Positions 28,790-43,046 of a stretch of 52,473 bases of DNA are shown here, in pieces. The stretch's first letter is position 1. Each line of letters opens with the position of its first letter. Position numbers and translations under genes: made by a program. The notes under the pieces were generated by a model that was not told where the DNA came from, searched no databases, and saw only the letters and a program-made list of their open reading frames with translations. The stretch covers positions 1 through 52,473 of the forward strand of contig CALBAK010000064.1 in assembly GCA_937926445.1 (NCBI GenBank), in the 5' to 3' direction. Origin of the DNA: an uncultured Alphaproteobacteria bacterium. GTDB lineage: Bacteria; Pseudomonadota; Alphaproteobacteria; Geminicoccales; Geminicoccaceae.

Positions 28790-29299
28790 GTGCGGACACG
28801 TGCCGGGATCATCGAGGCAGCTTCGCCGTCGGAGGAAGGGCATACGGTCCCGATCGTGGCCCTCGCCGCGGCGATCGCCCTCGCGACTGCCTTCGCCCTG
28901 GAGCATCTCGGCGGTTACGCACCCTGCTCGCTCTGCCTGTATGAGCGTTGGCCCTGGGCCCTCGCCCTGATCGCGGCACTCGGCGGCCAGCTGATCGGCC
29001 GGCCCCGCCCGGCACTCCTGATCGCGGGTCTTCTCCTCCTTGGCAACGCCGGGCTCTCCGCCTACCACGTCGGCGTCGAGGCCGGTTGGTTCGCTCTGCC
29101 CGGCACCTGTACGGCCGGCGGTGCCGTCACCACGCTCGAGGAGCTGCGCGCCCAGCTCGAGGCGGCCCGCCCCACCTGCGACCGGGTCGCGCTGAGCGTC
29201 TTCGGTCTGTCGCTGGCCGCCTGGAACGGGATCGCCGCTGCCGGGATCGCCGTCCTTGCGGTCCTGACCCTCGTCCGGGCGCCTCGGCTCAGCAGCTGA
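28790..29299 (+). CDS. DsbB-family disulfide bond formation protein
   Basis: Track ORF 169 aa, GTG start with GGAGGGA RBS. Membrane protein with paired cysteines CSLCLYER and a second pair TCTAGG...TCDR in loops. Confidence 0.5.
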   Translation: MRTRAGIIEAASPSEEGHTVPIVALAAAIALATAFALEHLGGYAPCSLCLYERWPWALALIAALGGQLIGRPRPALLIAGLLLLGNAGLSAYHVGVEAGWFALPGTCTAGGAVTTLEELRAQLEAARPTCDRVALSVFGLSLAAWNGIAAAGIAVLAVLTLVRAPRLSS

Positions 29300-30107
29300 A
29301 CAGCGTGGCCCCGGTCGCGTGCTGGAGCACGTGCCGGGTGGCGCCGCCGAGCACGAGCTGCCGCAGCCGCGAGTGGCTGTACAAGCCCATCACCAGGAGA
29401 TCGGCACCGAGCTCGCCCATACGCACCAGCAGATCCGCGCCGACATTGCCGGAGGCCGGCAGGCGCCGGCCGGCCGCCGCGATCCCGTGCCGATCGAGAA
29501 GGGCGAGCGCGCCGTCGAGGCTGTCCGCGCCCTCGTCGCCGACAGTCACAACCTCCACCGCGACCGCTGTCTGCAGGAACGGCAGCGCATCCTTGAGCGC
29601 GCGGGCCGCCTCCTTGCGGCCGTTCCAGCCCACGAGGACCTTCCGACCGAGATCGGCCGCGAACCCGCTGGGAGGCACCAGTAGCACCGGGCCGCCGGCA
29701 CCGAGTGCAGCCTGTTCGATCGGCTGCAGGGCGAGCGCGTCGATCCCTTGCACCCCGAAGCGTGGCCCGATCGTGAGATCCGCGGTGCGCGCCAGCTGCG
29801 AGAGGCACTCGCCAGGATCACCCTCGAGATGGCGCCAGAGCGCGCCTGAGGCGGGCTCGCACACCTGTCGGAAAGTCGCCTCGAGCCGCTCGGTCACGAA
29901 CTTCGCGGCCTCGCGCTGGGCCTCGATGATCTCGGGTCCGACATAGGCGGCACCCTCGCCGTAGCCGACTGGCACGATCGGCGGCGGTGTGACGTGCACG
30001 GCGACGAGCCGGGCGCCGAAGCGTCGCGCGAACTCGAGGGCGGACCGCAGGCGCACCTCGTTGCCGGCGTCGTCAGCGAGCTGGAGCAGGATCGTCCGAT
30101 AGGTCAT
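29289..30107 (-). CDS. universal stress protein (tandem UspA domains)
   Basis: Track ORF 272 aa. Two Usp-like halves, each ending in a G-x2-G-x9-G-S motif context (LVMGLYSHSRLRQLVLGGATRHVLQHA). Confidence 0.7.
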   Translation of the reverse strand: MTYRTILLQLADDAGNEVRLRSALEFARRFGARLVAVHVTPPPIVPVGYGEGAAYVGPEIIEAQREAAKFVTERLEATFRQVCEPASGALWRHLEGDPGECLSQLARTADLTIGPRFGVQGIDALALQPIEQAALGAGGPVLLVPPSGFAADLGRKVLVGWNGRKEAARALKDALPFLQTAVAVEVVTVGDEGADSLDGALALLDRHGIAAAGRRLPASGNVGADLLVRMGELGADLLVMGLYSHSRLRQLVLGGATRHVLQHATGATLFSC

Positions 30108-30152
30108 GGGCTGCCGCGTCCCCCCTGTTGCACGGGCCGAGCTTCGGCGCGC

Positions 30153-30758
30153 TCAACGTAGCAGCCGCCAGCCGGCGGCGATACGGGCGGCGGTCGTCAC
30201 CCAGCACATGGCGGCGAAGACGAGAGCGAGGGTAGGGAACCAGGCAGGCGAGAGACAGACCATCACGAAGAAGGCGATCGTCTCGCTGCCCTCGGTGAGC
30301 CCACCGAGGTAGTACAGCGACTTCTTGCCGCGTGCCTCGGTCTCGAGGCCGCGCCGGCTCGCCATAACGGCGAAAGCCAGAAAGGAGCTGCCGGTGCCCA
30401 TGAAGGCGAACAGTAGAAACGCGGCGGCGTGCGCGTTCCCGGCCGGATCGAAGAACGCGAAGGCGTAAGCCATGGCCGCGTAGACGATGAAGTCGAAGAC
30501 GATGTCAAGGAAGCCGCCGCGGTCCGTGATCCGGCTGTGCCGGGCCACCGCACCGTCGAGCCCGTCGGCGAGCCGGTTCACCAGGAAAAGGACGAGTCCC
30601 AGAAGCGGCCGGCCCGCGGCGACGAGCGAGGCCGCGAGGAGGCCCGTCAGGAAGCCCGCGATGCTCACCGTGTCGGCGGCGATACCGGTCCCGGCCAGCC
30701 GACGGCCGACCCGGTCCAGAGGGGGACCGACCAGACGGCGCGCCGCCGCGTCCAGCAT
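30153..30758 (-). CDS. CDP-alcohol phosphatidyltransferase family protein
   Basis: Track ORF 201 aa. Signature D-G-x2-A-R-x7-G-x3-D-x3-D present (DGLDGAVARHSRITDRGGFLDIVFDFIV). Confidence 0.7.
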   Translation of the reverse strand: MLDAAARRLVGPPLDRVGRRLAGTGIAADTVSIAGFLTGLLAASLVAAGRPLLGLVLFLVNRLADGLDGAVARHSRITDRGGFLDIVFDFIVYAAMAYAFAFFDPAGNAHAAAFLLFAFMGTGSSFLAFAVMASRRGLETEARGKKSLYYLGGLTEGSETIAFFVMVCLSPAWFPTLALVFAAMCWVTTAARIAAGWRLLR

Positions 30759-30785
30759 CCGACGAGCCGGGGACGAGCGGTCGGC

Positions 30786-31667
30786 TCAGGAGCGTCCCTG
30801 GCGCGGCTCGAAAGGCACTACCCGCTCCTTCCCCGGCGGGGCCGAGGCCGCGCCCGTCGCGAGCGGCTCCGCCGGGGACTCGCCGGGCGTCACGGCGCCG
30901 GTCACGGCTTCCTCGCGTCGCATCCGCGCCGCGAGCACGAAGCCGAAAGGCAGCGAGGCGACGTAGAGCAGGGCCAGGAGCGAGAGGGTGAGCCAGGGCT
31001 CGGTCACCAGAAGCGCCATGAGGAGGCCGGCCATCGCGAGCGTGGGCACGATCTGCTCGGGCCGCAGCCGCAGCCGCTTGAGCGAGAGGGTCGGCACACG
31101 GCTGACCATCAACATCGCCACGGCGGCCAGCGTCGCGGCGTTCACCCAGGCGCTCTGCCATATCCCGTGACCGAACGCGAACCAGGCGATCATGGGCGAG
31201 AGCGCGAGGCCCGCGGCTGCCGGCGCCGGCACACCCGTGAAGAAATGCTGGGACCAGCGGGGGCGGTTCGGGTCGTCGGCCTCGGTGTTGAAGCGGGCGA
31301 GCCGCAGGGCACAGCAGACACAGAACAGGAGTGCCACGGCCCAGCCGAGCCCACGGATCGGTTGCAGCGCCCAGAGATAGACCAAGAGCGCGGGTGCGAC
31401 GCCGAAATTGAAGAAGTCGGCGAGGCTGTCGAGTTCGGCACCGAGCTTGCTCTGGATGTTCAACAGCCGCGCCGCCCGCCCGTCGAGGCCGTCGAGGACG
31501 GCGGCCGCGACGATCAGCGCCACGGCGACCTCGTAGCGGCCGTCGAGCCCGTAGCGCAGCCCGGTAAAACCGGCGCACAGGCTCAGGATCGTGAACAGGT
31601 TCGGCACCATGTGCAGCAAGGGACGACGCGTCCGCTGCCGCTGCCGGCGCCGGCTACGCAGCATCAT
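30786..31667 (-). CDS. pssA: CDP-diacylglycerol--serine O-phosphatidyltransferase
   Basis: ATG at 31667 (M42 of track ORF, GGAGA RBS). [34 protein letters not shown] motif. 293 aa. Start overlaps the psd stop (ATGA). Confidence 0.8.
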
Positions 31668-32386
31668 GTCATTCGTCTCCGCCGGGGGACATGCTCCACA
31701 TCCAGCTCCGCGAGCACCGTCTCGCCGGCGATCGTGCGCTGCCCCAGGAGCACGAGCGGCCTCGTTCCGGCAGGCAGATAGACATCGCATCGGCTGCCGA
31801 AGCGAATCAAGCCCACGCGATCACCGGCGCCGAGCGTGCTACCGACCTCTACGAACGGCACGATCCGCCGCGCCACGAGCCCGGCGATCTGGACGAGCCC
31901 GACCTTTCGCCCGTCGGCCGTCTCGAGGACCCAGGCGAGCCGCTCGTTCTCCTCCGAGGCCTTGTCGAGAGAGGCGTTGAGGAAGCGGCCCGGATGGTGG
32001 TGGCGGACGAGGACCCGGCCCGGGACCGGCGTACGGTTCACGTGGACGTCGAAAACGTTCATGAAGATGCCGACACAGGGCAGGGGCTCGCTGCCCAGGC
32101 CGAGCTCCGGCGGCGGCCGCCGCGGGTGGACCGCGACCACCCGGCCGTCCGCCGGGCTCACCACGATTCCCGGCGCATCCGGCGTGACCCGTGCCGGATC
32201 GCGGAAGAACCAGGCGCACCAGCCGGTGAGCGCGAGACCCACCCAGAAGAGCGGACCCCAGAGCAGTCCGAGCAGGAGGGCGCCCACGAGAAAGGCCGCC
32301 ACGAACTTCCAGCCGTCAGGATGGATCGTTGGCAGAAGGCCCGGGATCGCTTCGTCCGCTCGCGTCCCCCGCTCGGCTCCGATCAT
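31664..32386 (-). CDS. psd: phosphatidylserine decarboxylase proenzyme (short alphaproteobacterial type)
   Basis: ATG at 32386 (M34 of track ORF 31664..32485). ...[44 protein letters not shown]..., GST self-cleavage region ([11 protein letters not shown]). Confidence 0.8.
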
Positions 32387-33113
32387 CGTCCCCGACCCTA
32401 TCGGCGCGCAGGAACACGCCGTCCATCTGCAGCTCGCGCCCCGTCCCCGGATCCACATAGCCCGGGAGGAAGAGCCAGGGAACATAGCCCATGGCTTCCA
32501 CCTGCTCGATCAGGCTGCGCCACGGGGTCTCGCCCTCGTAAAGGGGCACGAGGGCGAGCTCGAGCTGCAGCCCCAGGATCCGGGGAAGCAGGCCGCGCGC
32601 GCCCTCGAGCGCCGGGCTCTCGTAGCCTTGCAGGTCGAGCTTCAGGAAGATCCGTGACGCCGGCGATCCAACCAGCTCGGGCAGAGCATCGAGCCGGACG
32701 ACCGGCACCTCGATTCGCCGCACCGGCCGCGAACTCGGCGAGAGCCGGTCGAGCCGGGTGGTGCGCGGCAGGAGCGAGCTCATGTCGCTCTCCGCCGAGA
32801 CCTCGAGCACCGTCCGTCCGGCCTCGGCACCGAGTGCCACGGCGGGGGCGATCCGCCAGGCCGGGTCGGAGGCGGCCCGTCGGGCGAGCTCGGCCCTGAG
32901 CTCGGGGATCGGCTCGATCGAGAGGACGGGTCCGCGCCACCCCGACCCACGCAGGAGTGTGGCATACTGGCCGCGGTTCGCCCCGCCGTCGACGACGAGG
33001 TCGACGCCCCACCGTTCGAAGAGGTTCACCAGTCGCCGGGTCGGTTCGCGTGCCTTTCGCAGCGGCACGAGCTCGAAGCCCAGGGCCCGGGCGAGCCGGC
33101 GCAAGGTTCTCAA
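32316..33113 (-). CDS. FkbM family methyltransferase
   Basis: C-terminal part of track ORF 32316..34289. [12 protein letters not shown] (SAM-binding), IEP..., [10 protein letters not shown] motifs. Start provisionally TTG 33111-33113 overlapping the cyclase TGA; TTG 33104 is an alternative. The 3' end overlaps psd by about 70 nt. Confidence 0.5.
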
Positions 33114-34309
33114 GACCGGTCGACCAGCGCCAAGACCTCGACCGGGTCGGGCACGCCGCGCAGCGGGAAGCGGCCGAGCGGCTCGAGGAATTCGGCATCG
33201 CAGGAACACATCGCGGCGAACGACCCGGACAGGACAACGTCGCGGTCGAGCTCCTTGGCGAGCTGCTGGAGGCGGGCGGCGACGTTGACCGCCGGGCCGA
33301 TCACCGTGAAGTCGAGGCGTGTGGGCGTGCCTATGTTGCCGTACATCACGTCGCCCACGTGCAGGGCGAGGGCGAAGCGGAGCGGTTCCTGCCCGCGCCC
33401 CCGACGTTCCGCGTTGAGGCGCGCGAGGCCGCGCCGGGCCTCGACCGCAGCGCGCAGCGCCCGATGGCAGGCGGCCTCGGCCTCGAGCGGGAAGATCGCG
33501 AGCATTCCGTCGCCGATGAACTTGAGGATCTCGCCACCCTGTGCCTCGACTGGCGCGCCCATGCACTCGAAGAAGCCGTTGAGGCATTCGATCACCGCAT
33601 CGCGCGGCAGGCTCTCGACGATCGTCGTGAAGTCGCGGAGGTCGGACTGCCAGATCGCCGCCCGCACGGTGGCGCCGCTGCCGCGGCGGATCTCGCCCGC
33701 GAGGATGCGGGCCCCGGCGTGGCGGCCGACATAGGCGTCGAGCAGATTGCGCGCGATCCGGCGGCTGAGCCGGATCTCGGTGGCCATCGCGAGGGCCGGG
33801 AGGAGCTGGCCGAGGGCCGCGAGGTCCGCCGCGCGGAAGCCGCCCGGGCGCCGGGTGGCCCAGGTGCAGGCGTGTCGCGTGCCGTCGGTGAAGGTCATCG
33901 GCATGGCCACGTAGTCGGTCATGCCCGCGGCCCTGAGCTCGTCGTAAACCGGATATTCCCGAGGCGCCGGCGCCTCGAGGTCGAGCCGTTGGTGGATCGC
34001 CTCGGCACCCTCGTAGAGCGCGCGGACCGGGCTGTCGAGGAAGCGCCGTTCGCTGGTCGTGTGGTGGCCGAAGAAGCCGATCTCGGCTTCCTCCATACCG
34101 GGTCGCCAGACCAACCGCGCGCCGAAGAACTGTGGATGGAGGGTCCGCAGGTGCAGGGTCGAGCGCGCGATCGGCAGCCCGTCCTGGAGCAGGTTCGCGC
34201 ACAGGGTGGCGAACAGACGTTCGAGGAAGCGCTCGCGTCCGCTCTCGAGGACGAGCCAGTCGAGGGCGAGAAGGCGGCGTGTCGGCCAACGGCCGCGCTC
34301 TTCGCTCAT
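33110..34309 (-). CDS. class III adenylate/guanylate cyclase with a roughly 200-aa N-terminal uncharacterised domain
   Basis: ATG at 34309 (M70 of track ORF 33110..34516). Catalytic core AAIWQSDLRDFTTI...KFIGDGMLAIF...HVGDVMYGNIG...DFTVIGPAVNVAARL. Confidence 0.75.
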   Translation of the reverse strand: MSEERGRWPTRRLLALDWLVLESGRERFLERLFATLCANLLQDGLPIARSTLHLRTLHPQFFGARLVWRPGMEEAEIGFFGHHTTSERRFLDSPVRALYEGAEAIHQRLDLEAPAPREYPVYDELRAAGMTDYVAMPMTFTDGTRHACTWATRRPGGFRAADLAALGQLLPALAMATEIRLSRRIARNLLDAYVGRHAGARILAGEIRRGSGATVRAAIWQSDLRDFTTIVESLPRDAVIECLNGFFECMGAPVEAQGGEILKFIGDGMLAIFPLEAEAACHRALRAAVEARRGLARLNAERRGRGQEPLRFALALHVGDVMYGNIGTPTRLDFTVIGPAVNVAARLQQLAKELDRDVVLSGSFAAMCSCDAEFLEPLGRFPLRGVPDPVEVLALVDRS

Positions 34310-34779
34310 GTTTCGCGGGCCTCGAGCTCGCCGAGCTTGAGCGAGACGTCGGTCAGCCGCTGCGTCGTATGGTGCAACCGCGCCGCAAGCTCGTGCATGA
34401 TTTCGATGCCCACCTGCGGGAACTGGGTCACGAGATTGAAGAAGCCGTCCTTGGAGATCCGCAGCGTGTGCAGCCGGGTGGCGGCTACCACCGTCGCTGT
34501 ACGCGGGACGTCGCACAGGATCGCGATCTCGCCCACGATGTCGTTCTTGCCGAGTGTGGCGACCTTGACCCGGCCTCTGGACGTGTCGACAAGTACGTCG
34601 GCGGTGCCCTCGAGGATGATGAAGGCGGCATCACCCGGCTCGCCCTGACGGCAGAGCACCTCGCCCGGCTCGTAGTCGAGATGCTCGGAGGTGAAGGCCA
34701 GGAGCTTGAGCCGGGCCGGTTCGACCTTGGCGAAGAGGGGAATCGCGCGCAGCGCGTCGACGTCGCGTTGCAGGCTCAC
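34306..34779 (-). CDS. stand-alone cyclic-nucleotide-binding (CAP effector-type) domain protein
   Basis: In frame with track ORF 34306..34911. GTG 34779 preceded by GGAGAAGGAG; an alternative TTG at 34800 overlaps the ABC-like stop. IPLFAKVEPARLKLLAFTSEHLDYEPGEVLCRQGEPGDAAFIILEGTADV...GEIAIL...RTATVVA. Stop overlaps the cyclase ATG (ATGA). Confidence 0.65.
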   Translation of the reverse strand: MSLQRDVDALRAIPLFAKVEPARLKLLAFTSEHLDYEPGEVLCRQGEPGDAAFIILEGTADVLVDTSRGRVKVATLGKNDIVGEIAILCDVPRTATVVAATRLHTLRISKDGFFNLVTQFPQVGIEIMHELAARLHHTTQRLTDVSLKLGELEARET

Positions 34780-34796
34780 GGCTCCTTCTCCATCGC

Positions 34797-37439
34797 TCAA
34801 CCCGCCACCGCCGCGGGCTCGCGCTGGGGACCGCCGAGCTGGGCGAAGCTTCCGTCGGCCACTACCCGGCCGCGCTCGATCACGAGCACGCGCTCGAACC
34901 GACCGGCCCAATCCTGGTCCTGCAGAGACCAGATCACCGAGCGGTCGCGGAAGGTCTCGAGCAACGCCTCGCGGACGAGCGGTTGGTCGGCGGCATCCAG
35001 CGCCAACATCGGCTCATGCAGGATGACGAGCTCGGGCCGGCGCAGCACTTCACGGGCGATCGCGAGTTTCTGGCGCTGCGCCAGGGTCAGTCGCGCGCCG
35101 CCGATCCCGCATTCGGCCCCGAGGCCCACCTCGATCACCGCATCGCGCAGGCCGTGCGCATCGACGACCTCTCCCAGGAGCGCGGCCACCCGCGTGGCAG
35201 CCCGGGCCTGGCCGTAGGCGACCTTGCCGAACAAGATGTTCTCCTGGACCGAGGCGGCCGGATTGACGTGGTTGGGATCGAAGAAGGCGACCGCGCCCAC
35301 GAGCCCGGCCGGCAGGCCTTCGCGGAAGCGCTTGCGGGCCTCGAGGACCCGGGCCTGGAGTGCTTCGTCGATCAACCCGAGACGATGGCGGGCCACGACG
35401 AGCTTGAACGGAAGGTCGAGGAGGTGGTCGCGCTCGGCGGCCGACAGGCGGTCGAGCCGATCGACAGTCGTCTTTCCCAGGATCGCCTTGAATTTCGGCA
35501 GATTCTCCGGTGCGATGAACGCGAACTGCCGGTAATATTCGTGGTCCGCCGGCAGGTCGGCGAACAGCTCGACCATGGTCTGCGCGAGCCGGTAGCCGAC
35601 CCGCTGCAGTTCGGCCACGAGCCCGGTCTCCTCGAGCACGGAGCGGACATAGGGATGGCTCGCGAGATGCTCGAGGTCGAAGACGCGACCCACGGGCATG
35701 CCGAAGAGCAGGTTCTCGGCGAGCGTGGCGTTGCCGTTGTAGCGATCGGGATCGAACGGCTCGACCAGCCGGGCGAGCCGCTCGTCGCCGGCCAGTCGCG
35801 CGCGCATCGCGCGACGGGCCTCGAGGATCCGACCGGCGAGCTCGGGGCGGTTCGCGGGCAGCTGCCCCCGCAGACCGAAGGCGTAGACGTCGGCCGTCAG
35901 GCGCGCGACGTCGAGTGCTCGGATCATCGCCGGCAGCCGCTCCGCCGGCTCGCGCACTCCCGCCGCTTCCCAATCGACCCAGTCGGCGTCGACCGGATCC
36001 GGCGAGTTGCCTGAAGCCAGGGCCTCGTGCCGGTCGCGGGCGTGCCGGACGCGGTCGGCGGCCGTCGGTTCGATCAGGCGCAGCGGTCGATGCTTGAGCC
36101 CGTAGAGGAGGTTGTCCTCGACCGTGCCGGCAATCAGTGCCGGCTGGCTGCCGATATAGGCGATCTTCCGGCCGAGCACCGATTCCGGCAGCTCGTGGAA
36201 GGCCATATCGTCGATCAGGACGCGCCCCGCATGCGGCACGAGGAGCCCCGCGAGCAGCAGGGTTAGCTCCTCGCGGCCACCCCCGGCGGGGCCGATGAGC
36301 GCCACCCTGCAGGGGAGCTCGAGGTCGAGCTCGATCCGGTCGAGCACGGGCTCGCCGCCGTCGTCGAGCAGCGTGACACCGGTCAAGCGAAGGTGCGTGG
36401 CGGTAAAGGAGGGGACGCGCTGCGGCTCGCCGGTCAGAAGCTCGGCGGGCTTGAGGCCGGGCGGTGCGAACTGGGACACGGTCTGCTCGTATTTGATCCG
36501 GACATCGTACATCGTCTGATAATAGGTCAAGAGCTCTTTCCACGGCGCGGACAGGTCCTTGTGCGCCCCTACCACGGCCACGAGTGCACCCAGCGTAATG
36601 TCTCCGTGGATCACGAGCCAGCCGCCGATCGAGAAGAAGAAGAACGGGCCGAGCTGCGCGATGAAGTTGTTCAGAAATTTGATCAGGAACTTCTTCTTGT
36701 AGATCGCGAACCGGATCCAGAACACGGCCCCGAGTTGCTCGCTGAAGCGGGCGAGCTCGTAGCGTGCCGTGTCGTGGGCGTGGATCTCGCGGATCGTGGC
36801 GCAGGTCTCGCTGATCCGCTCGGCGTTGCGACGGACCTGGCGGACCCGTTGCTTGGCGAGCTCGTTGACCTGCCGCTGCAGGCGCGGGATCAGCCAGATC
36901 TGCAGCGGATAGAGCGCGATCGCTGCGAAGCCGAGAACCGGGTCCTGCATGAACATGAAGGTCAGGATCGTGAGCAGCGTCCCGCCCTGGAACGCCGGCA
37001 CGGCGAGGGCGTCGCCCACGAACCCGCCGAGCGCTTCGGTCTCGGCGTTGATCATCTGCACGAGTTCGCCCTGGCTCACCTTCCGGAAGTGTGGGAGAGG
37101 GAAGCGCAGGACGTGCTCGTAGAGCTGATAGCGCAGCCGTCGCAGCATGCGCTCGGCGACGATCCCGGCGTAGACATTCAAGACGTACTTCAGCCCACCG
37201 CCGATCAGCACGAGCAGCAGGAACAGACCGCACAGCGCGAACAGGTAAGTGGTACGCTCGAGGTCTTGGCCGAACAGGACCCACGGACCATCTGGGTCGC
37301 CAAGAGCTCGGTTGATGATCGTCTTCGGCAGCTCGAGCGAGAAGTAGAGCGGCGGGAAAGACAGCGCGGTCAGCCCCAGGATGAGAAGCTGCTGTCGCCA
37401 GCTGTACTTTCGGATGAACGCATAGATCGACTGTTCCAT
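34797..37439 (-). CDS. ABC exporter-like protein: type-I ABC transmembrane domain fused to an enlarged, degenerate nucleotide-binding domain
   Basis: ATG 37439 = M92 of track ORF 34797..37712 (MEQSIYAFIRKYSWRQQLLILGL..., 880 aa). About 6 TM helices, then an NBD with Walker A GPAGGGREEL (no Lys-Ser/Thr), Q-loop GSQ, a roughly 300-aa insertion, signature LTLAQRQK (not LSGGQ), Walker B LVILHEP (Asp to His), and no H-loop His. Three repeated segments TVEDNLLYG / TLAENLLFG / SVQENILFG. Confidence 0.65.
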   Translation of the reverse strand: MEQSIYAFIRKYSWRQQLLILGLTALSFPPLYFSLELPKTIINRALGDPDGPWVLFGQDLERTTYLFALCGLFLLLVLIGGGLKYVLNVYAGIVAERMLRRLRYQLYEHVLRFPLPHFRKVSQGELVQMINAETEALGGFVGDALAVPAFQGGTLLTILTFMFMQDPVLGFAAIALYPLQIWLIPRLQRQVNELAKQRVRQVRRNAERISETCATIREIHAHDTARYELARFSEQLGAVFWIRFAIYKKKFLIKFLNNFIAQLGPFFFFSIGGWLVIHGDITLGALVAVVGAHKDLSAPWKELLTYYQTMYDVRIKYEQTVSQFAPPGLKPAELLTGEPQRVPSFTATHLRLTGVTLLDDGGEPVLDRIELDLELPCRVALIGPAGGGREELTLLLAGLLVPHAGRVLIDDMAFHELPESVLGRKIAYIGSQPALIAGTVEDNLLYGLKHRPLRLIEPTAADRVRHARDRHEALASGNSPDPVDADWVDWEAAGVREPAERLPAMIRALDVARLTADVYAFGLRGQLPANRPELAGRILEARRAMRARLAGDERLARLVEPFDPDRYNGNATLAENLLFGMPVGRVFDLEHLASHPYVRSVLEETGLVAELQRVGYRLAQTMVELFADLPADHEYYRQFAFIAPENLPKFKAILGKTTVDRLDRLSAAERDHLLDLPFKLVVARHRLGLIDEALQARVLEARKRFREGLPAGLVGAVAFFDPNHVNPAASVQENILFGKVAYGQARAATRVAALLGEVVDAHGLRDAVIEVGLGAECGIGGARLTLAQRQKLAIAREVLRRPELVILHEPMLALDAADQPLVREALLETFRDRSVIWSLQDQDWAGRFERVLVIERGRVVADGSFAQLGGPQREPAAVAG

Positions 37440-37515
37440 CCGCCCCGCCTGGCTGCCCGTCCAGGAGAGCCTAGTCGAGGACGATAGCTCGTGCAAAAGG
37501 TGACGTCGATGCTGA

Positions 37516-38898
37516 TCAGGTCGGTTGCGAAGCGCCCGCGGGCGCGACGGGCAGCCGCAGACGCGCCCGGAGGCCGCCCGTGGGCCGGTTAGAGAGATCG
37601 ACGTCGCCGCCATGGCTGCGAGTGATGCCGCGAGCGATCGCCAGCCCGAGCCCGACCCCGCCGGTCTCGCGCGAGCGCGAGGTCTCGAGCCGGATGAACG
37701 GCTCGAACACATCCTCGATCCGGTCCTCGGGAATCCCGGGGCCCTCGTCGTCGATCGTGACGATCGCCTCGTTGCCCTCGCGGCTGAGGCTCACACTTGC
37801 TCGCTTGCCGTAGGCGAGAGCGTTCTCCACGAGGTTGCGAATCGCCCGCTTGAACGCCGCAGGGCGGATCCGGGCGACCAGTGGCTCGGCGGCGACCAGC
37901 CGTGCATCGCCGCCGAGTTGGGCCGTGTCCTCGACCACGCTCTCGACGAGGGCCGCGAGATCGACCTCGCGAACCGGTTCGCCTGTCGCCTCGTCGCGGG
38001 CGAAAGCGAGGGTCGCTTCGACCATCCGCTGCATCTCGTCCAGGGTGGCGCACATCCGCGCCCGCGCCTCCTCGTCGTCGAGCAGCTCGACGCGCAGCCG
38101 CAGGCTCGTGATCGGCGTGCGCAGATCGTGGCCGAGGGCAGCGAGCAGGCGGGTCCGATCGGCGATGAAGCGAGCGAGCCGCTCCTGCATCCGATTGAAG
38201 GCGGCGATGGCCCGGCGCACTTCCTCTGGACCCTGCTCGGGAAGCGGCGTGCCCGCCTCGCCGCGCCCGAGCCGCTCGGCTGCCGAGGCGAGGCCGGCGA
38301 GCGGCCGGGTCGCGCGCCGGGTGCCGACCAGCACCGCCACCACCAGGAGTCCAGCCAGCAGCAACAGCATGATCGCGTAGGGTCGGGCGAAGCCTGGCGT
38401 CGGCGGCGGCAGATCGCCCCGGGCATTCAGCCACCCACCATCGGGCAGGGCGATGGACACCGCGGCCACCAGTCGCGAGCGCCGCCAGGGAACGCCCTCG
38501 GCGTCGTCGTCGGTTTCCATCCAGCGACGCTCGCGTGGCACGGGTTGAACGCGGACCGCCCGCGCCGCTGGTCCCAGCTCGCGCAGGAGGCGGCGGGCGA
38601 GAGGGTGACGGTCGGCCCGGCCGTGCTCGGCCACCGCTGGTTCATGATCGAGCGAGAGAGCAAGCGGTCGGCCGGCCAGCGCCGCAACGATCGCGGAATG
38701 GCTCGCGGCCGGCGTGGCGGCGAGCACTCGGACGAGCGGGACGAGCTGCTCGACCACCCGCTCGCCACGCACCTGCTCGAAGGCCAGCCGCCGCTCGTCG
38801 GCGAAGATCCAGAGGGCGATCGCCTGGGCGCTCAGCACGGCGAGCATCACGAGCATCACGAGCCGGCCTGCGAGCGTCCTGGGCCAACGGCGGATCAT
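37516..38898 (-). CDS. sensor histidine kinase (EnvZ-like: 2 TM, HAMP, HisKA, HATPase_c)
   Basis: Track ORF 460 aa. H-box LGHDLRTPITSLRLRVELL, N-box VENALAYG, G-boxes IDDEGPGIP and GGVGLGLAIARGI. ATG overlaps the response-regulator TGA (ATGA). Confidence 0.85.
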   Translation of the reverse strand: MIRRWPRTLAGRLVMLVMLAVLSAQAIALWIFADERRLAFEQVRGERVVEQLVPLVRVLAATPAASHSAIVAALAGRPLALSLDHEPAVAEHGRADRHPLARRLLRELGPAARAVRVQPVPRERRWMETDDDAEGVPWRRSRLVAAVSIALPDGGWLNARGDLPPPTPGFARPYAIMLLLLAGLLVVAVLVGTRRATRPLAGLASAAERLGRGEAGTPLPEQGPEEVRRAIAAFNRMQERLARFIADRTRLLAALGHDLRTPITSLRLRVELLDDEEARARMCATLDEMQRMVEATLAFARDEATGEPVREVDLAALVESVVEDTAQLGGDARLVAAEPLVARIRPAAFKRAIRNLVENALAYGKRASVSLSREGNEAIVTIDDEGPGIPEDRIEDVFEPFIRLETSRSRETGGVGLGLAIARGITRSHGGDVDLSNRPTGGLRARLRLPVAPAGASQPT

Positions 38899-39614
38899 TC
38901 GCGGGTCACCTCGGCCTCGAAGCTGTAGCCGCCGCCCCAGTGCGTGCGGATCAGCTCGGGCCGCCGTGCGTCGCGCTCGATCTTGCGCCGCAGCCGCAGC
39001 ACTTGGTTGTCGATCGCTCGGTCGAACGGCGCCGCCTCGCGGCCGCGCGTGAGATCGAGGAGCTGGTCGCGCGAGAGCACCATGCGCGGATGGTCGAGGA
39101 AGGCGGAGAGCAGCAGGAACTCGCCGGTACTCAGCGGTACCGCGACGCCGTCCGGGCCGACCAGGTCGCGCCGGCCGACCTCGAGCGTCCAGCGGTCGAA
39201 ACGGATCCGCTCGCCGGCCGGGCGCCCGCGGCGCGGTGGCAGCGCGCGGGCGCGCCGCAGCACCGCCTTGATGCGAGCCAGGAGCTCGCGGGGATTGAAC
39301 GGCTTCGCGACATAGTCGTCGGCGCCCATCTCGAGGCCGACGATCCGGTCGGTCTCCTCGCCGAGCGCGGTGAGCAGCACGATCGGCACGTCGCCTTGCG
39401 CCCGCAGCTGTCGGCAGAGTGACAGCCCGTCCTCGCCCGGCATCATGATGTCGAGGACGACGAGGTCGATCGCTGCGGTCTGCAGGACGCGGCGGCCGGC
39501 CTGCGCGTTCTCGGCCGTACTCACCCGGAAGCCGTGCTTGGCGAGATAGCGGGCGAGCGGTTCGCGGATGTCGCGGTGGTCGTCGACCACGAGAAGATGC
39601 GGCTCGTTCTCCAT
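38895..39614 (-). CDS. OmpR-family response regulator (receiver plus winged-helix)
   Basis: C-terminal 239 codons of track ORF 38895..40469 starting MENEPHLLVVDDHRDIREPL..., phospho-Asp context DLVVLDIMMPGEDG, winged-helix C-terminus ...IRTHWGGGYSFEA. Confidence 0.85.
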   Translation of the reverse strand: MENEPHLLVVDDHRDIREPLARYLAKHGFRVSTAENAQAGRRVLQTAAIDLVVLDIMMPGEDGLSLCRQLRAQGDVPIVLLTALGEETDRIVGLEMGADDYVAKPFNPRELLARIKAVLRRARALPPRRGRPAGERIRFDRWTLEVGRRDLVGPDGVAVPLSTGEFLLLSAFLDHPRMVLSRDQLLDLTRGREAAPFDRAIDNQVLRLRRKIERDARRPELIRTHWGGGYSFEAEVTRE

Positions 39615-40461: not shown

Positions 40462-42366
40462 ATGAGCATCTACAGGGCGATCTGGCGGCGTAGCCTCGAG
40501 GATCCCGAGGGCTTCTGGGCCGAGGCGGCCGAGGCGCTGCACTGGGACCGGCGCTGGGACCGTGTGCTCGATTCCTCGCGCCCGCCATTCTATCGCTGGT
40601 TCACCGGCGGCATGCTCAACACCTGCTGGAATGCGGTCGACCGCCACGTCGTGGCGGGCCGCGGCGCGCAGCCGGCGCTGATCCACGACAGCCCGGTCAG
40701 CGGCACGATCTGCACGCTCACCTACGCCGAGCTGCAGGATGCGGTGGCTCGGTTCGCGGGGGCGCTCGTTCGCCTGGGCACACGCAAGGGCGATCGAGTG
40801 ATCGTCTACATGCCGATGGTGCCGGAGGCGATCGTCGCCATGCTGGCCTGCGCGCGGATCGGCGCGATCCATTCGGTCGTCTTCGGCGGCTTCGCGAGCC
40901 ACGAGCTCGCCAAGCGCATCGACGACGCGAAGCCCACGCTCGTCGTCTCAGCCTCCTGCGGCATCGAGCCCGGTCGGGTGGTGGCCTACAAGCCGCTGCT
41001 CGATGCCGCGATCGACCAGGCCAAGCACAAGCCGCGCCACTGCATCGTCCTCCAGCGGCCGCAGCTGCGGGCCGAGCTCGTGCCCGGCCGCGATCTCGAC
41101 TGGCAGGAGGCGGTGGCCGGTGCTCATGCCGTGGACTGCGTGCCCGTCGCCGCCACCGACCCGCTTTACATCCTCTACACTTCCGGCACCACCGGACAGC
41201 CCAAGGGCATCGTCCGCGACAACGGCGGCCACGCTGTGGCACTGCTCTGGAGCATGCGCAACATCTACGGTGTTCAGCCGGGCGAGGTCTACTGGGCGGC
41301 TTCGGACGTGGGCTGGGTCGTGGGCCACAGCTACATCTGCTACGCGCCGCTCCTGAACGGCAACACGACCGTGGTCTACGAGGGCAAGCCGGTCGGTACC
41401 CCCGATCCCGGTGCCTTTTGGCGAGTCATCGCCCAGCACGACGTCAAAGTGCTGTTCACCGCGCCTACGGCCTTCCGCGCCATCCGCAAAGAGGATCCCG
41501 AAGGAGCGTATCTGAAGCGCTACGACCTTTCTCGCTTCCGGGCGCTCTTCCTGGCGGGCGAGCGTTGCGACCCGGACACGCTCTTGTGGGCCGAGGCGCA
41601 GCTCGGCGTGCCCGTGATCGACCATTGGTGGCAGACCGAGACCGGCTGGGCGATCTGCGCCAACCCGCTCGGCGTCGAGCGCTTGCCGGTCAAGCCGGGC
41701 TCGCCCACCCTGCCTATGCCCGGTTACGACGTGCGGGTGCTAAACGAGGAAGGTCGCGAGGTCGAGCCCGGGAAACTCGGCGCCATCTGCGTCAAGTTGC
41801 CTTTGCCACCCTCCTGCTTGCCGACGCTCTGGAACGCCGACGACCGCTTCGTGCAGTCCTATCTGTCGCGTTATCCCGGATACTATCTCACCGGCGACGC
41901 CGGCTTCGTCGACGAGGACGGCTACCTTTTCATCATGAGCCGGATCGACGACGTCATCAACGTCGCCGGCCACCGGCTGTCGACCGGCGCGATTGAGGAG
42001 GTTCTGGCTTCGCACAAGGACGTCGCGGAATGCGCGGTGATCGGTGTGGCAGACGAACTCAAAGGGGAGCTGCCGCTCGGCTTCATCGTGTTGAAAGCCG
42101 GGGTCGATCGGCCGCACGGCGAGATCGAGAAGGAACTCGTCCAGAAAGTGCGCGACGAGATCGGCCCGGTCGCAGCGTTCAAGCTGGTGGCCGTCGTCAA
42201 ACGTCTGCCCAAGACGCGCTCCGGAAAGATCCTCCGCGGTACCATGAAGAAGATCGCCGACGGTGCACCCTGGACCATTCCGGCGACGATCGACGATCCC
42301 GCGATCCTCGACGAAATCGTGGAAGCACTGGCTCGATTGGGCTATCCGCGCAGGACTCGCGGCTGA
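40462..42366 (+). CDS. prpE: propionate--CoA ligase (AMP-forming acyl-CoA synthetase, PrpE-like)
   Basis: Track ORF 634 aa. Near-collinear with PrpE: DPEGFWAEAA...YMPMVPEAIVAMLACARIGAIHSVVFGGFAS...YTSGTTGQPKG...LPKTRSGKILR. GGAGGGAGGG RBS. Confidence 0.8.
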   Translation: MSIYRAIWRRSLEDPEGFWAEAAEALHWDRRWDRVLDSSRPPFYRWFTGGMLNTCWNAVDRHVVAGRGAQPALIHDSPVSGTICTLTYAELQDAVARFAGALVRLGTRKGDRVIVYMPMVPEAIVAMLACARIGAIHSVVFGGFASHELAKRIDDAKPTLVVSASCGIEPGRVVAYKPLLDAAIDQAKHKPRHCIVLQRPQLRAELVPGRDLDWQEAVAGAHAVDCVPVAATDPLYILYTSGTTGQPKGIVRDNGGHAVALLWSMRNIYGVQPGEVYWAASDVGWVVGHSYICYAPLLNGNTTVVYEGKPVGTPDPGAFWRVIAQHDVKVLFTAPTAFRAIRKEDPEGAYLKRYDLSRFRALFLAGERCDPDTLLWAEAQLGVPVIDHWWQTETGWAICANPLGVERLPVKPGSPTLPMPGYDVRVLNEEGREVEPGKLGAICVKLPLPPSCLPTLWNADDRFVQSYLSRYPGYYLTGDAGFVDEDGYLFIMSRIDDVINVAGHRLSTGAIEEVLASHKDVAECAVIGVADELKGELPLGFIVLKAGVDRPHGEIEKELVQKVRDEIGPVAAFKLVAVVKRLPKTRSGKILRGTMKKIADGAPWTIPATIDDPAILDEIVEALARLGYPRRTRG

Positions 42367-42507
42367 GCGCCGACCTTTTGGATCAAGAGAATCACGATAT
42401 GCGGCGGCGTGCCGCATCGATCGCGTCATCCCCCCCATGCGTCTTGCGCAACGCAGCCTTTCCGGTATTTTCGCAATCCCCGATGTACCCGCATGGAGGG
42501 AGGCGTC

Positions 42508-43032
42508 ATGCGAGCTTGCAAGCAGCTCGTCGAAGTCGGCCGCCGGCAGTTTCTGCGTGGCGGCGGGAGCGTCGCGGTCGGTGCGGCCGCTGCGATGGTC
42601 GGCGGTGGCGAGGCACAGGCGGCGAGCCCTGCTCTGGCTCGCGCCAACTATCCGAGCACGCGTCTCGCGAACATCAAAGATCTCAAGGTCAACGAGCCGA
42701 AGGACGTGACCTATCCCGATGCCGACATGCCGGGCGTGCTTTTGAAGCTCGGCAAGAAGGTGCCGGGTGGCGTCGGTCCAGACGGCGATATCGTCGGCTT
42801 CACGACTATTTGCCCGCACAAGGGTTTCCCGCTCTTCTATCGGGCCGACGACCGCACACTCAACTGCCCCGGCCACTATTCGCGCTTCGACTGTGAGGCG
42901 GGTGGCCAGCAGATTTGGGGTCAGGCTACGCAGAACTTGCCGCAGTACATCCTGCGGGTCGACGCCAAGGGCGACATCTATGCCGAAGGTGTCGACGAGC
43001 TCCTCTATGGCAGGCTCAGCAACGTGCTCTGA
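42508..43032 (+). CDS. aioB: arsenite oxidase small (Rieske) subunit
   Basis: ATG 42508 (M34 of track ORF 42409, GGAGGGAGG RBS). Tat motif GRRQFLRGG. Rieske boxes CPHKGFP and CPGHYSRF. C-terminus ...GDIYAEGVDELLYGRLSNVL matches AioB/AoxA. Confidence 0.85.
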   Translation: MRACKQLVEVGRRQFLRGGGSVAVGAAAAMVGGGEAQAASPALARANYPSTRLANIKDLKVNEPKDVTYPDADMPGVLLKLGKKVPGGVGPDGDIVGFTTICPHKGFPLFYRADDRTLNCPGHYSRFDCEAGGQQIWGQATQNLPQYILRVDAKGDIYAEGVDELLYGRLSNVL

Positions 43033-43046
43033 AGGGAGGAACGCCC

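What the first reader, a model, noticed from the sequence alone, without database searches (positions are those of the whole stretch)
33110..39614. Translationally coupled cNMP signalling module built around a degenerate, internally triplicated ABC-like protein
Seen in sequence: on the minus strand a histidine kinase / OmpR regulator pair is followed 77 nt later by four genes. They are an ABC-exporter-like protein (880 aa), a stand-alone cNMP-binding domain protein, a class III nucleotidyl cyclase and an FkbM methyltransferase. The gene junctions are 4-nt start/stop overlaps: TTGA at 34797-34800 if the TTG start is used, ATGA at 34306-34309, and TTGA at 33110-33113.

The ABC-like protein keeps a normal type-I transmembrane domain, but its NBD cannot be a canonical ATPase. 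Walker A reads GPAGGGRE (no Lys, no Ser/Thr). The signature reads LTLAQ (not LSGGQ). Walker B reads ILHEP (Asp to His). The H-loop His is absent. Three spaced copies of the post-Q-loop element (TVEDNLLYG, TLAENLLFG, SVQENILFG) indicate the helical subdomain has been triplicated inside a roughly 300-aa insertion.

Established knowledge: cNMP-binding domains fused to ABC exporters are a recognised architecture. A split version with a catalytically dead, repeat-expanded NBD, encoded next to its own cyclase, is not one I recognise.

Inference: the cyclase makes cAMP/cGMP, the small cNMP-binding protein reads it, and the ABC-like protein is a non-hydrolytic membrane effector or scaffold. The two-component system may control the unit.
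Basis: partly seen in the sequence, partly recalled or inferred. Interest (0 to 1): 0.75.

Follow-up and report, generated by a model that had tools for sequence, protein, structure and literature searches.

The report
Cyclic-nucleotide-partnered ABC-like protein, dead ATPase
The window encodes a member of a large, unstudied family of ABC-exporter-like membrane proteins that lack the ATPase motifs, carry two extra copies of one sub-domain, and are always fused to or followed by a cyclic-nucleotide-binding domain, which suggests control by cAMP or cGMP rather than ATP hydrolysis.

Summary

This is a family trait, not local decay. None of 304 full-length relatives has a complete motif set.

The interpretation needs re-centring. 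The conserved unit is ABC-like protein plus CNB domain. The CNB gene lies directly downstream in 84/84 genome loci, and is fused or adjacent in 80/81 metagenome loci. About 30 of these are C-terminal fusions, some with an added GGDEF domain.

The cyclase is an accessory confined to Geminicoccaceae-like genomes. The two-component system occurs only in the closest relatives. FkbM is replaced elsewhere by an unrelated small methyltransferase (Methyltransf_17). The CNB gene starts at GTG 34779, not TTG 34800.

Most likely this is a cNMP-controlled, non-hydrolytic ABC-fold membrane effector. What it moves or signals is unknown. I found no literature on it.

The parts
34797..37439 (-). ABC-exporter-like protein, 880 aa (stop codon included). 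This is the core component.
   Evidence: Pfam ABC_membrane 3.4e-22 and ABC_tran 3.2e-11 on the N-terminal half only. More than 120 full-length homologues at 56-100% identity.
36450..37439 (-). Transmembrane domain, residues 1-330 (type-I-exporter / ABC_membrane fold).
   Evidence: It is the most conserved part of the protein in alignment A1.
36171..36422 (-). N-terminal part of the NBD, residues 340-423, with degenerate Walker A GPAGGGRE at 36270-36293.
35775..36170 (-). Repeat 1, residues 424-555. It runs from the Q-loop strand through TVEDNLLYG and a helical-subdomain-like segment to the 'LEAR' helix. It carries an internal family-specific insert (SGNS...ADWVDW).
   Evidence: HHalign R1 vs R3 95.6% and R1 vs R2 92.3%. 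Tail helix R1 vs R2 88%.
35298..35774 (-). Repeat 2, residues 556-714. It runs from VEPFDP through TLAENLLFG and a helical segment, then an extra helical elaboration, to the 'LEAR' helix.
   Evidence: HHalign R2 vs R3 98.2%, E 2.9e-14. N576 and G580 are invariant in 77/77 diverse relatives.
34800..35297 (-). Repeat 3 plus the C-terminal NBD, residues 715-880. It contains SVQENILFG, signature LTLAQ (35076-35090), Walker B LVILHE (35013-35030) and no H-loop His (SVIWSL 34923-34940).
34306..34779 (-). Stand-alone cNMP-binding protein, 157 aa from GTG 34779 (stop codon included). It is the obligate partner of the ABC-like protein.
   Evidence: Pfam cNMP_binding 5.9e-22. The PBC residues GE...PRTA are conserved in at least 90% of 82 orthologues. 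The start is supported. Fusion forms are shown.
33110..34309 (-). Class III (IIIb-like) adenylate cyclase, 399 aa, with an N-terminal domain of about 210 aa of unclear type. It is a lineage-specific accessory.
   Evidence: Guanylate_cyc 3.4e-9. Best PDB relatives are OaPAC, bPAC, CyaB and CyaC, with the metal Asp residues, the Lys, DFTVIG...N...R all aligned. It is adjacent only in Geminicoccaceae-type loci.
32316..33113 (-). FkbM-family methyltransferase, 265 aa. It is an accessory that follows the cyclase in 15 of about 20 cyclase-bearing loci.
   Evidence: Methyltransf_21 2.7e-15 and TIGR01444 above cut-off..
37516..39614 (-). EnvZ-like histidine kinase (37516-38898) and OmpR-like regulator (38895-39614). 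They are neighbours, not a conserved part of the module.
   Evidence: They are present upstream only in L006-L010 and in L087.

Best explanation
The conserved unit is a two-part membrane complex. One part is an ABC-exporter-fold half-transporter. Its NBD keeps the ABC fold but has lost the catalytic motifs, and its helical subdomain has been triplicated. The other part is a cyclic-nucleotide-binding domain that sits at, or docks to, the C-terminal end of that NBD.

The proposed mechanism is as follows. cNMP binding to the CNB domain, rather than ATP hydrolysis, sets the conformation of the NBD pair. Through the coupling interface it then sets the state of the well-conserved transmembrane domain. 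That would open, close or bias a translocation or signalling pathway.

In this Geminicoccaceae-type genome a co-transcribed class IIIb adenylate cyclase supplies the ligand locally, most likely cAMP. The FkbM methyltransferase is a clade-specific addition of unknown role. The upstream two-component system is only a recent neighbour.

Shown here: the architecture, the family-wide motif loss, the repeat homology, the obligate CNB partnership and fusions, the intact cNMP site and the intact cyclase catalytic residues.

Inferred, not shown: physical docking in the split form, independence from ATP, homodimeric assembly, the direction of signal flow, and the cargo.
For: - Repeat homology.
- Motif loss across the family. 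Walker A Lys is present in 30/77 diverse members. xSGGQ occurs in 0/304. Walker B DE occurs in 3/304. The three ENLLFG elements are near-invariant.
- Partnership: the CNB gene is directly downstream on the same strand in 84/84 genome loci. It is fused (30) or adjacent (50) in 80 of 81 informative metagenome loci. The fused architecture ABC_membrane+ABC_tran+cNMP_binding(+GGDEF) is seen. The fused CNB shares the LKLLAFTSE and PRT motifs with the window's protein.
- The CNB phosphate-binding cassette is conserved.
- Cyclase residues.
- Tight gene spacing with no terminator-like site between genes.
Against: - No biochemical data exist, and I found no paper on the family.
- A Gly-rich P-loop with Lys or Arg persists in most members (KE 99, RE 88 of 304). 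Nucleotide binding, or a non-canonical catalytic arrangement, therefore cannot be excluded.
- Assembly with a canonical ABC partner encoded elsewhere was not testable.
- GGDEF-fused variants suggest that in some lineages the module may act as a signal input rather than an effector.
- Most genomes with the pair have no adjacent cyclase, so the ligand and its source are unknown there.
- CNB domains can bind non-cNMP ligands. The HetC CNB domain binds ppGpp (PMC10986499).
Confidence: 0.55

Rival explanations
1. It is still an ATP-dependent exporter. The unusual motifs (Walker A GxxGxG[KR]E, Walker B [HNY][DE]) form a non-canonical but working site, or an ATP-binding 'glue' site. The CNB domain merely modulates an ATP-driven cycle, as regulatory domains do in other ABC transporters.
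For: The NBD fold is intact. The Gly-rich loop plus Lys/Arg is retained in most members, and an acidic residue regularly follows it. Degenerate sites in known exporters still bind ATP (PMC7756269).
Against: Known degenerate sites are always paired with one consensus site (PMC7756269). Here a single half-transporter gene offers no consensus site. The Walker B and catalytic positions vary freely (NE, YD, ND, HD, DD, SD and others). Walker A Lys is Ala, Gly or Gln in many members. There is no LSGGQ in 304 sequences and no H-loop His.
Confidence: 0.2
2. It is a transmembrane signalling device rather than a transporter. The ABC-fold TMD senses a membrane or periplasmic cue. The expanded NBD is a scaffold that passes this signal to cytoplasmic domains: CNB as co-input and GGDEF as output where present.
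For: Fusions carry a C-terminal GGDEF after the CNB domain. The catalytic motifs are lost, yet the TMD and the repeat elements are strongly conserved.
Against: Most members (all split forms and most fusions) have no recognisable output domain. CNB is normally an input domain.
Confidence: 0.12
3. It heterodimerises with a canonical ABC half-transporter encoded elsewhere and provides the degenerate half of an asymmetric exporter.
For: This is a general precedent for degenerate NBDs (PMC7756269).
Against: No second ABC_membrane gene is conserved next to it in about 165 loci. Even in a heterodimer, the lost signature motif would cripple the partner's consensus site.
Confidence: 0.08
4. It is a Pycsar-like anti-phage system: a cyclase, a CNB domain and a membrane effector.
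For: In PADLOC the cyclase matches PycC models (5e-24). The CNB protein matches the CNB part of PycTIR (3e-16). The logic, cyclase to cNMP to CNB to membrane protein, is the same.
Against: The matches are to generic domains. The cyclase has the Lys and the DFTVIG Thr typical of purine class IIIb cyclases and aligns best to adenylate cyclases. The ABC-CNB pair is vertically conserved in housekeeping synteny across alphaproteobacterial families and mostly lacks any adjacent cyclase. No TIR or short-TM effector is present.
Confidence: 0.03
5. It is a decaying pseudogene or a chance motif resemblance.
For: None beyond the loss of the motifs.
Against: There are 929 50%-identity cluster representatives of the insert alone. 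The length is conserved, many columns are invariant, and AF2 confidence is very high. Controls for the repeat alignments are negative.
Confidence: 0.01

Closest known systems
Homodimeric type-I-fold (type IV) ABC exporters such as Sav1866 and MsbA
   Different: All catalytic motifs are degenerate. A ~290-aa insertion made of two extra helical-subdomain copies lies between the Q-loop region and the signature. NCBIfam scores are far below every family cut-off (160 vs 602 for MsbA). The protein has an obligate CNB partner.
CNB-domain ABC exporters: HetC of Nostoc (PMC10986499) and the NHLP bacteriocin exporter subunit TIGR03797
   Same: An ABC exporter is combined with a cNMP_binding-type domain that is needed for function or regulation.
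   Different: In those proteins the CNB domain is N-terminal and the ATPase is canonical and essential. HetC also has a C39 peptidase, and its CNB domain binds ppGpp. Here the CNB domain is C-terminal or a separate protein, the ATPase motifs are lost and the NBD is expanded. The TIGR03797 score is 78 vs a cut-off of 709.
Degenerate nucleotide-binding sites of heterodimeric or full-length ABC exporters (TM287/288, TmrAB, CFTR, SUR; review PMC7756269)
   Same: Walker B/catalytic Glu, signature and H-loop are substituted while the fold is retained. The degenerate site is used for regulation rather than turnover.
   Different: Those proteins always keep one consensus site. Here the only NBD encoded is degenerate, so a homodimer would have none.
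Insertions between Walker A/Q-loop and signature in other ABC-type ATPases (Rad50/SMC coiled coils, UvrA insertion domains); from general knowledge, not tested here
   Same: The large insertion is at the same topological position in the ABC fold.
   Different: Those inserts are coiled coils or unrelated domains in active ATPases. Here the insert is an internal duplication of the helical subdomain itself, in a protein without the catalytic motifs.
Pycsar and cNMP-gated membrane effectors (MloK1/SthK-type CNB-gated channels)
   Same: The signalling logic is the same: a CNB domain controls a membrane protein. The closest solved CNB relatives include PKG/PKA, MloK1 and SthK domains.
   Different: The effector here is an ABC-exporter fold, not a channel, TIR or short TM effector. 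It is not in a defence-island context.

Membership tests
ABC exporter superfamily (structural membership) | ABC_membrane 6-TM domain | tested here: met
   PF00664 E 3.4e-22, 79.9 bits vs cut-off 28.
ABC exporter superfamily (structural membership) | NBD with the ABC ATPase fold | tested here: met
Catalytically competent ABC ATPase | Walker A GxxGxGK[ST] | tested here: not met
   GPAGGGRE in the window. Canonical in only 8/304 relatives.
Catalytically competent ABC ATPase | ABC signature LSGGQ | tested here: not met
   LTLAQ in the window. 0/304 relatives have xSGGQ.
Catalytically competent ABC ATPase | Walker B hhhhD followed by the catalytic E | tested here: not met
   LVILHE in the window (Asp to His). 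The DE pair occurs in 3/304, and the position varies freely.
Catalytically competent ABC ATPase | H-loop His and Q-loop Gln | tested here: not met
   The H-loop position is Trp (39/77) or other residues and no His is conserved. The Q-loop column is not conserved.
MsbA / named NCBIfam exporter families | Score above the curated cut-off | tested here: not met
   The best hit is TIGR02203 at 160.8 bits vs 602. All 137 hits are below their cut-offs.
N-terminal-CNB ABC exporters (HetC / TIGR03797) | CNB domain N-terminal to the TMD, with a canonical ATPase | tested here: not met
   The CNB domain is a separate downstream gene or a C-terminal fusion. TIGR03797 scores 78.5 vs 709.
cNMP_binding domain with a functional phosphate-binding cassette | PF00027 match plus the PBC Gly-Glu and Arg-Thr/Ser | tested here: met
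   PF00027 5.9e-22. GEIAIL..PRTA is conserved in at least 90% of 82 orthologues. Ligand identity was not tested.
Class III nucleotidyl cyclase, adenylate-specific (IIIb-like) | Two metal Asp residues, substrate Lys, Thr/Asp partner, and transition-state Asn and Arg | tested here: met
   In the alignment to OaPAC (5x4t), SDLRDFT, LKFIGDG and LDFTVIGPAVNVAARL all match. Activity and specificity were not measured.
Pycsar defence system | A pyrimidine cyclase plus an effector in which CNB is fused to TIR or TM, with patchy defence-island distribution | tested here: not met
   Only generic domain hits to PycC and PycTIR. The cyclase has purine-type residues. The context is vertically conserved housekeeping synteny, and the pair mostly lacks a cyclase.
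FkbM methyltransferase family | Methyltransf_21 / TIGR01444 above cut-off | tested here: met
   57.3 bits vs 22.7, and 60.1 vs 37.7.

The most novel reading that the evidence does not exclude
This family is a new functional class of ABC-fold membrane proteins. In it the ATP-hydrolysis engine has been replaced by second-messenger control. Cyclic-nucleotide binding to an obligate C-terminal or partner CNB domain acts through a triplicated helical subdomain. It gates a passive translocation pathway (channel, facilitator or lipid scramblase) or relays a transmembrane signal, with no consensus ATP site at all.
Probability: 0.3. Interest if true: 0.85.

Novelty: new variant of a known kind. Interest (0 to 1): 0.68.

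Why it matters
Every characterised ABC transporter keeps at least one consensus ATP site. A large family that keeps the exporter fold but has no consensus site would be a natural experiment. It has at least 929 50%-identity clusters and is widespread in Rhodospirillales-type Alphaproteobacteria. The names on a few fused clusters also point to Xanthomonadales/Lysobacterales Gammaproteobacteria. The family could show what the ABC scaffold does without ATP hydrolysis.

The family would also add a new type of bacterial cNMP effector. Few are known beyond CRP-type regulators and CNB-gated channels. The GGDEF fusions link cNMP and c-di-GMP signalling at the membrane.

The triplicated helical subdomain is also a new way of elaborating the NBD. 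Cultured hosts (Azospirillum, Thalassobaculum, Nisaea, Sneathiella) make the family experimentally accessible.

Tried and rejected
- Literature: six full-text searches found no description of the family. Only HetC and general reviews served as comparators.
- Curated families: NCBIfam and Pfam have no dedicated model.
- Extended repeat homology: I tested whether the second half of repeat 2 (residues 618-712) is a cryptic signature/Walker B copy. HHalign gave 0.8% probability, so this was rejected. Only its terminal 'LEAR' helix matches the tail of repeat 1.
- Methyltransferases: I tested whether the small methyltransferase of other lineages is an FkbM orthologue. BLASTP found no similarity, and it is Methyltransf_17.
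- Other neighbours: ORF clustering of flanks for further conserved partners returned only housekeeping synteny (histidine phosphatase, oligopeptide ABC ATPase, exonuclease III) and spurious high-GC ORFs.
- Regulatory elements: Rfam found nothing in the region. The promoter/terminator scan was uninformative.
- Pycsar was considered and rejected.
- Docking: I could not inspect how the CNB domain docks, because model coordinates are not exposed and no multimer prediction is available.

Full report
**What is in the window**

On the minus strand, ORF listing and profile searches give the following genes:
- An OmpR-type regulator at 38895-39614.
- An EnvZ-like histidine kinase at 37516-38898.
- A 77-nt gap.
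- An 880-aa ABC-exporter-like protein at 34797-37439.
- A small cNMP-binding (CNB) protein.
- A class III cyclase at 33110-34309.
- An FkbM-family methyltransferase at 32316-33113.

Downstream on the same strand come psd, pssA, a CDP-alcohol phosphatidyltransferase and an ORF (29289-30107) aligned with the Usp-domain gene of the syntenic locus L002.

The ATGA overlap between the CNB gene and the cyclase is present. So is the TTGA overlap between the cyclase and FkbM. FkbM orthologues start at a Met aligned with residue 1-2 of the TTG-start product.

The ABC-to-CNB junction needs correcting. TTGA is there, but 82 orthologues begin at a Met aligned with Val8 of the TTG-start product. Public gene calls give a 157-aa protein that starts 17 nt after the ABC stop. 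The start is therefore GTG 34779, preceded by GGAG.

**The ABC-like protein**

Pfam recognises ABC_membrane and only the N-terminal half of ABC_tran. NCBIfam exporter models match in two blocks, roughly residues 37-450 and 723-869. Every hit is far below its cut-off.

- Walker A GPAGGGRE.
- Signature LTLAQ.
- Walker B LVILHE.
- SVIWSL in place of the H-loop.
- The three elements TVEDNLLYG, TLAENLLFG and SVQENILFG.

**Decay or design**

The protein has more than 120 full-length homologues at 56-100% identity and about 880 aa, mostly from Geminicoccaceae. The insert alone (residues 448-745) finds 929 50%-identity cluster representatives at E<=1e-3, and 250 at E<=1e-30.

In a 77-sequence alignment spanning 26-63% identity:
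- Walker A Lys is kept in 30 sequences; it is Arg in 18 and Ala in 17.
- The Walker B Asp column reads N32/D21/H7.
- The catalytic Glu column reads E21/D20.
- The H-loop column is Trp or variable.
- N576, G580 and G738 of the repeated elements are invariant. E575, F579, N734 and F737 are nearly so.

Among 304 full-length members, none has xSGGQ. Eight have a canonical Walker A, three have Walker B DE, and none has a complete set. It is not met, so degeneracy is a family trait.

**The triplication**

Profile-profile alignment of family sub-alignments gives:
- Repeat 2 (553-712) vs repeat 3 (713-880): 98.2%, E 2.9e-14.
- Repeat 1 (415-552) vs repeat 3: 95.6%, E 1.2e-8. This alignment extends into the signature helix.
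- Repeat 1 vs repeat 2: 92.3%, E 5.5e-7.
- Controls against the TMD: 0.1-0.2%.

Repeats 1 and 2 both end in a homologous 'LEAR' helix (88%). The rest of repeat 2 is not a cryptic signature/Walker B copy (0.8%).

AlphaFold2 on residues 335-880, with a 100-sequence alignment, gives pLDDT 95.2 and pTM 0.92. The model shows a thrice-repeated pattern of strand, short helix and helices.

**What is conserved around it**

I ran tblastn of the window's proteins against 85 loci, drawn from one-genome-per-species contigs and from contigs that carry close homologues. The taxa include Geminicoccaceae, Azospirillum, Nisaea, Thalassobaculum, Sneathiella, Defluviicoccus, Stellaceae and Minwuia:
- The CNB gene lies directly downstream on the same strand in 84 of 84 loci that have downstream DNA.
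- The cyclase is present in about 20 loci, all of the Geminicoccaceae type.
- FkbM is present in 15 of those.
- The HK/RR pair is present only in the five closest loci.

In 46 of the 85 loci the gene after CNB is instead a ~162-aa Methyltransf_17 protein (PF12692, E 1e-56). It has no sequence similarity to FkbM.

Many insert-bearing proteins are 1020-1200 aa long. They are fusions of the form ABC_membrane-NBD(insert)-cNMP_binding, and some carry a further C-terminal GGDEF domain. The few named clusters are labelled Xanthomonadales, Lysobacterales and Rhodospirillaceae.

Of 82 metagenome loci:
- 30 are fused and 50 are split.
- One is truncated and one lacks a detectable CNB domain.
- Methyltransf_17 follows 30 of the split forms and none of the fused forms.
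- A two-component system lies upstream in only one locus, L087.

The fused CNB domain shares the LKLLAFTSE and PRT motifs with the window's protein. The small protein is therefore the detached C-terminal domain of the ABC-like protein.

**The other parts**

The CNB phosphate-binding cassette (GE...PRTA) is conserved in at least 90% of orthologues. Its closest solved relatives are PKG and PKA CNB domains.

The cyclase aligns best to the adenylate cyclases OaPAC, bPAC, CyaB and CyaC. The metal-binding Asp residues, the substrate Lys, the DFTVIG Thr, the Asn and the Arg are all in place. From general knowledge of class III cyclases, this is the class IIIb adenylate-cyclase pattern.

PADLOC gives generic PycC and PycTIR domain hits. 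The purine-type residues, the housekeeping synteny and the frequent absence of a cyclase all argue against a Pycsar system.

**Interpretation**

The best-supported reading is a CNB-controlled, non-hydrolytic ABC-fold membrane effector. Here it has its own adenylate cyclase. Known degenerate ABC sites always accompany one consensus site (PMC7756269). A single half-transporter gene with a degenerate NBD offers none.

Several things remain open:
- Whether ATP is still bound.
- Whether the protein is homodimeric.
- Whether signal flows inward or outward; the GGDEF fusions raise this question.
- What the transmembrane domain handles.

Neighbouring lipid and envelope genes are only weak hints. These are psd and pssA here, and lpxK, a glycosyltransferase and a lipid kinase near one fused form.

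I found no paper on the family. The nearest described system is HetC. It has an N-terminal CNB domain that binds ppGpp and an essential canonical ATPase (PMC10986499).

**Verdict**

- Observation: confirmed, with one start-codon correction.
- Interpretation: partly supported. The conserved unit is the ABC-CNB pair, not the four genes plus the two-component system.
- Novelty: a new variant of a known kind. The family is widespread and unannotated.
- Interest: 0.68.

Noticed in passing
L023-L085 (e.g. L050:11198-11689, L025:11133-11621); L103-L164: In most split-form loci outside the Geminicoccaceae, the gene directly after the CNB gene is a ~162-aa Methyltransf_17 (PF12692) protein. This holds for 46/85 genome loci and 30/50 split metagenome loci, and for none of the fused forms. 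It is unrelated in sequence to the window's FkbM, so a methyltransferase of some kind recurs next to the pair.
   Followed up: partly
P0244, P0257, P0322, P0327, P0331 and others; L086:6001-9549: Some family members are four-domain fusions of the form ABC_membrane-NBD(insert)-cNMP_binding-GGDEF. This links the module to c-di-GMP synthesis.
   Followed up: partly
L170:1539-4953, L171:1113-4081: A divergent ~830-850-aa subfamily (P0193, P0210; about 28% identity) carries the insert. It is followed by a metallo-beta-lactamase-fold gene (Lactamase_B_2) instead of a CNB gene. Pfam does not recognise any ABC domain in P0193.
   Followed up: partly
L087:3682-9102: A distant fused homologue also has an OmpR-type regulator and a histidine kinase directly upstream on the same strand, as in the window. 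This is the only such case among 82 metagenome loci.
   Followed up: no
window 42409-45584 (+): Arsenite oxidase genes are present: the small Rieske subunit (TIGR02694, 196 bits) and the large molybdopterin subunit (TIGR02693, 1319 bits).
   Followed up: partly
window 29289-32485 (-): psd, pssA, a CDP-alcohol phosphatidyltransferase and an ORF aligned with the Usp-domain gene of syntenic L002 follow FkbM on the same strand. If psd uses the Met at about 32386, the non-conserved C-terminal tail of FkbM overlaps the psd start. The same order occurs in L002, so the signalling genes sit at the head of a phospholipid-synthesis gene string.
   Followed up: partly
window 44321-44402 (+): ARAGORN calls a tRNA-Ile(aat) inside the arsenite oxidase large-subunit ORF. 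Rfam does not report it, so it is probably a false positive.
   Followed up: no
window 40462-42366 (+): A propionate/acetate-CoA ligase gene runs divergently from the regulator. In L002 the same gene directly abuts the ABC-like gene. The HK/RR pair therefore looks like an insertion between them in the window's lineage.
   Followed up: partly
window 33110-34309 (-), residues 1-210 of the cyclase: The N-terminal ~210 residues of the cyclase give only a weak GAF_2 hit (E 0.006). The sensor domain is unidentified.
   Followed up: no
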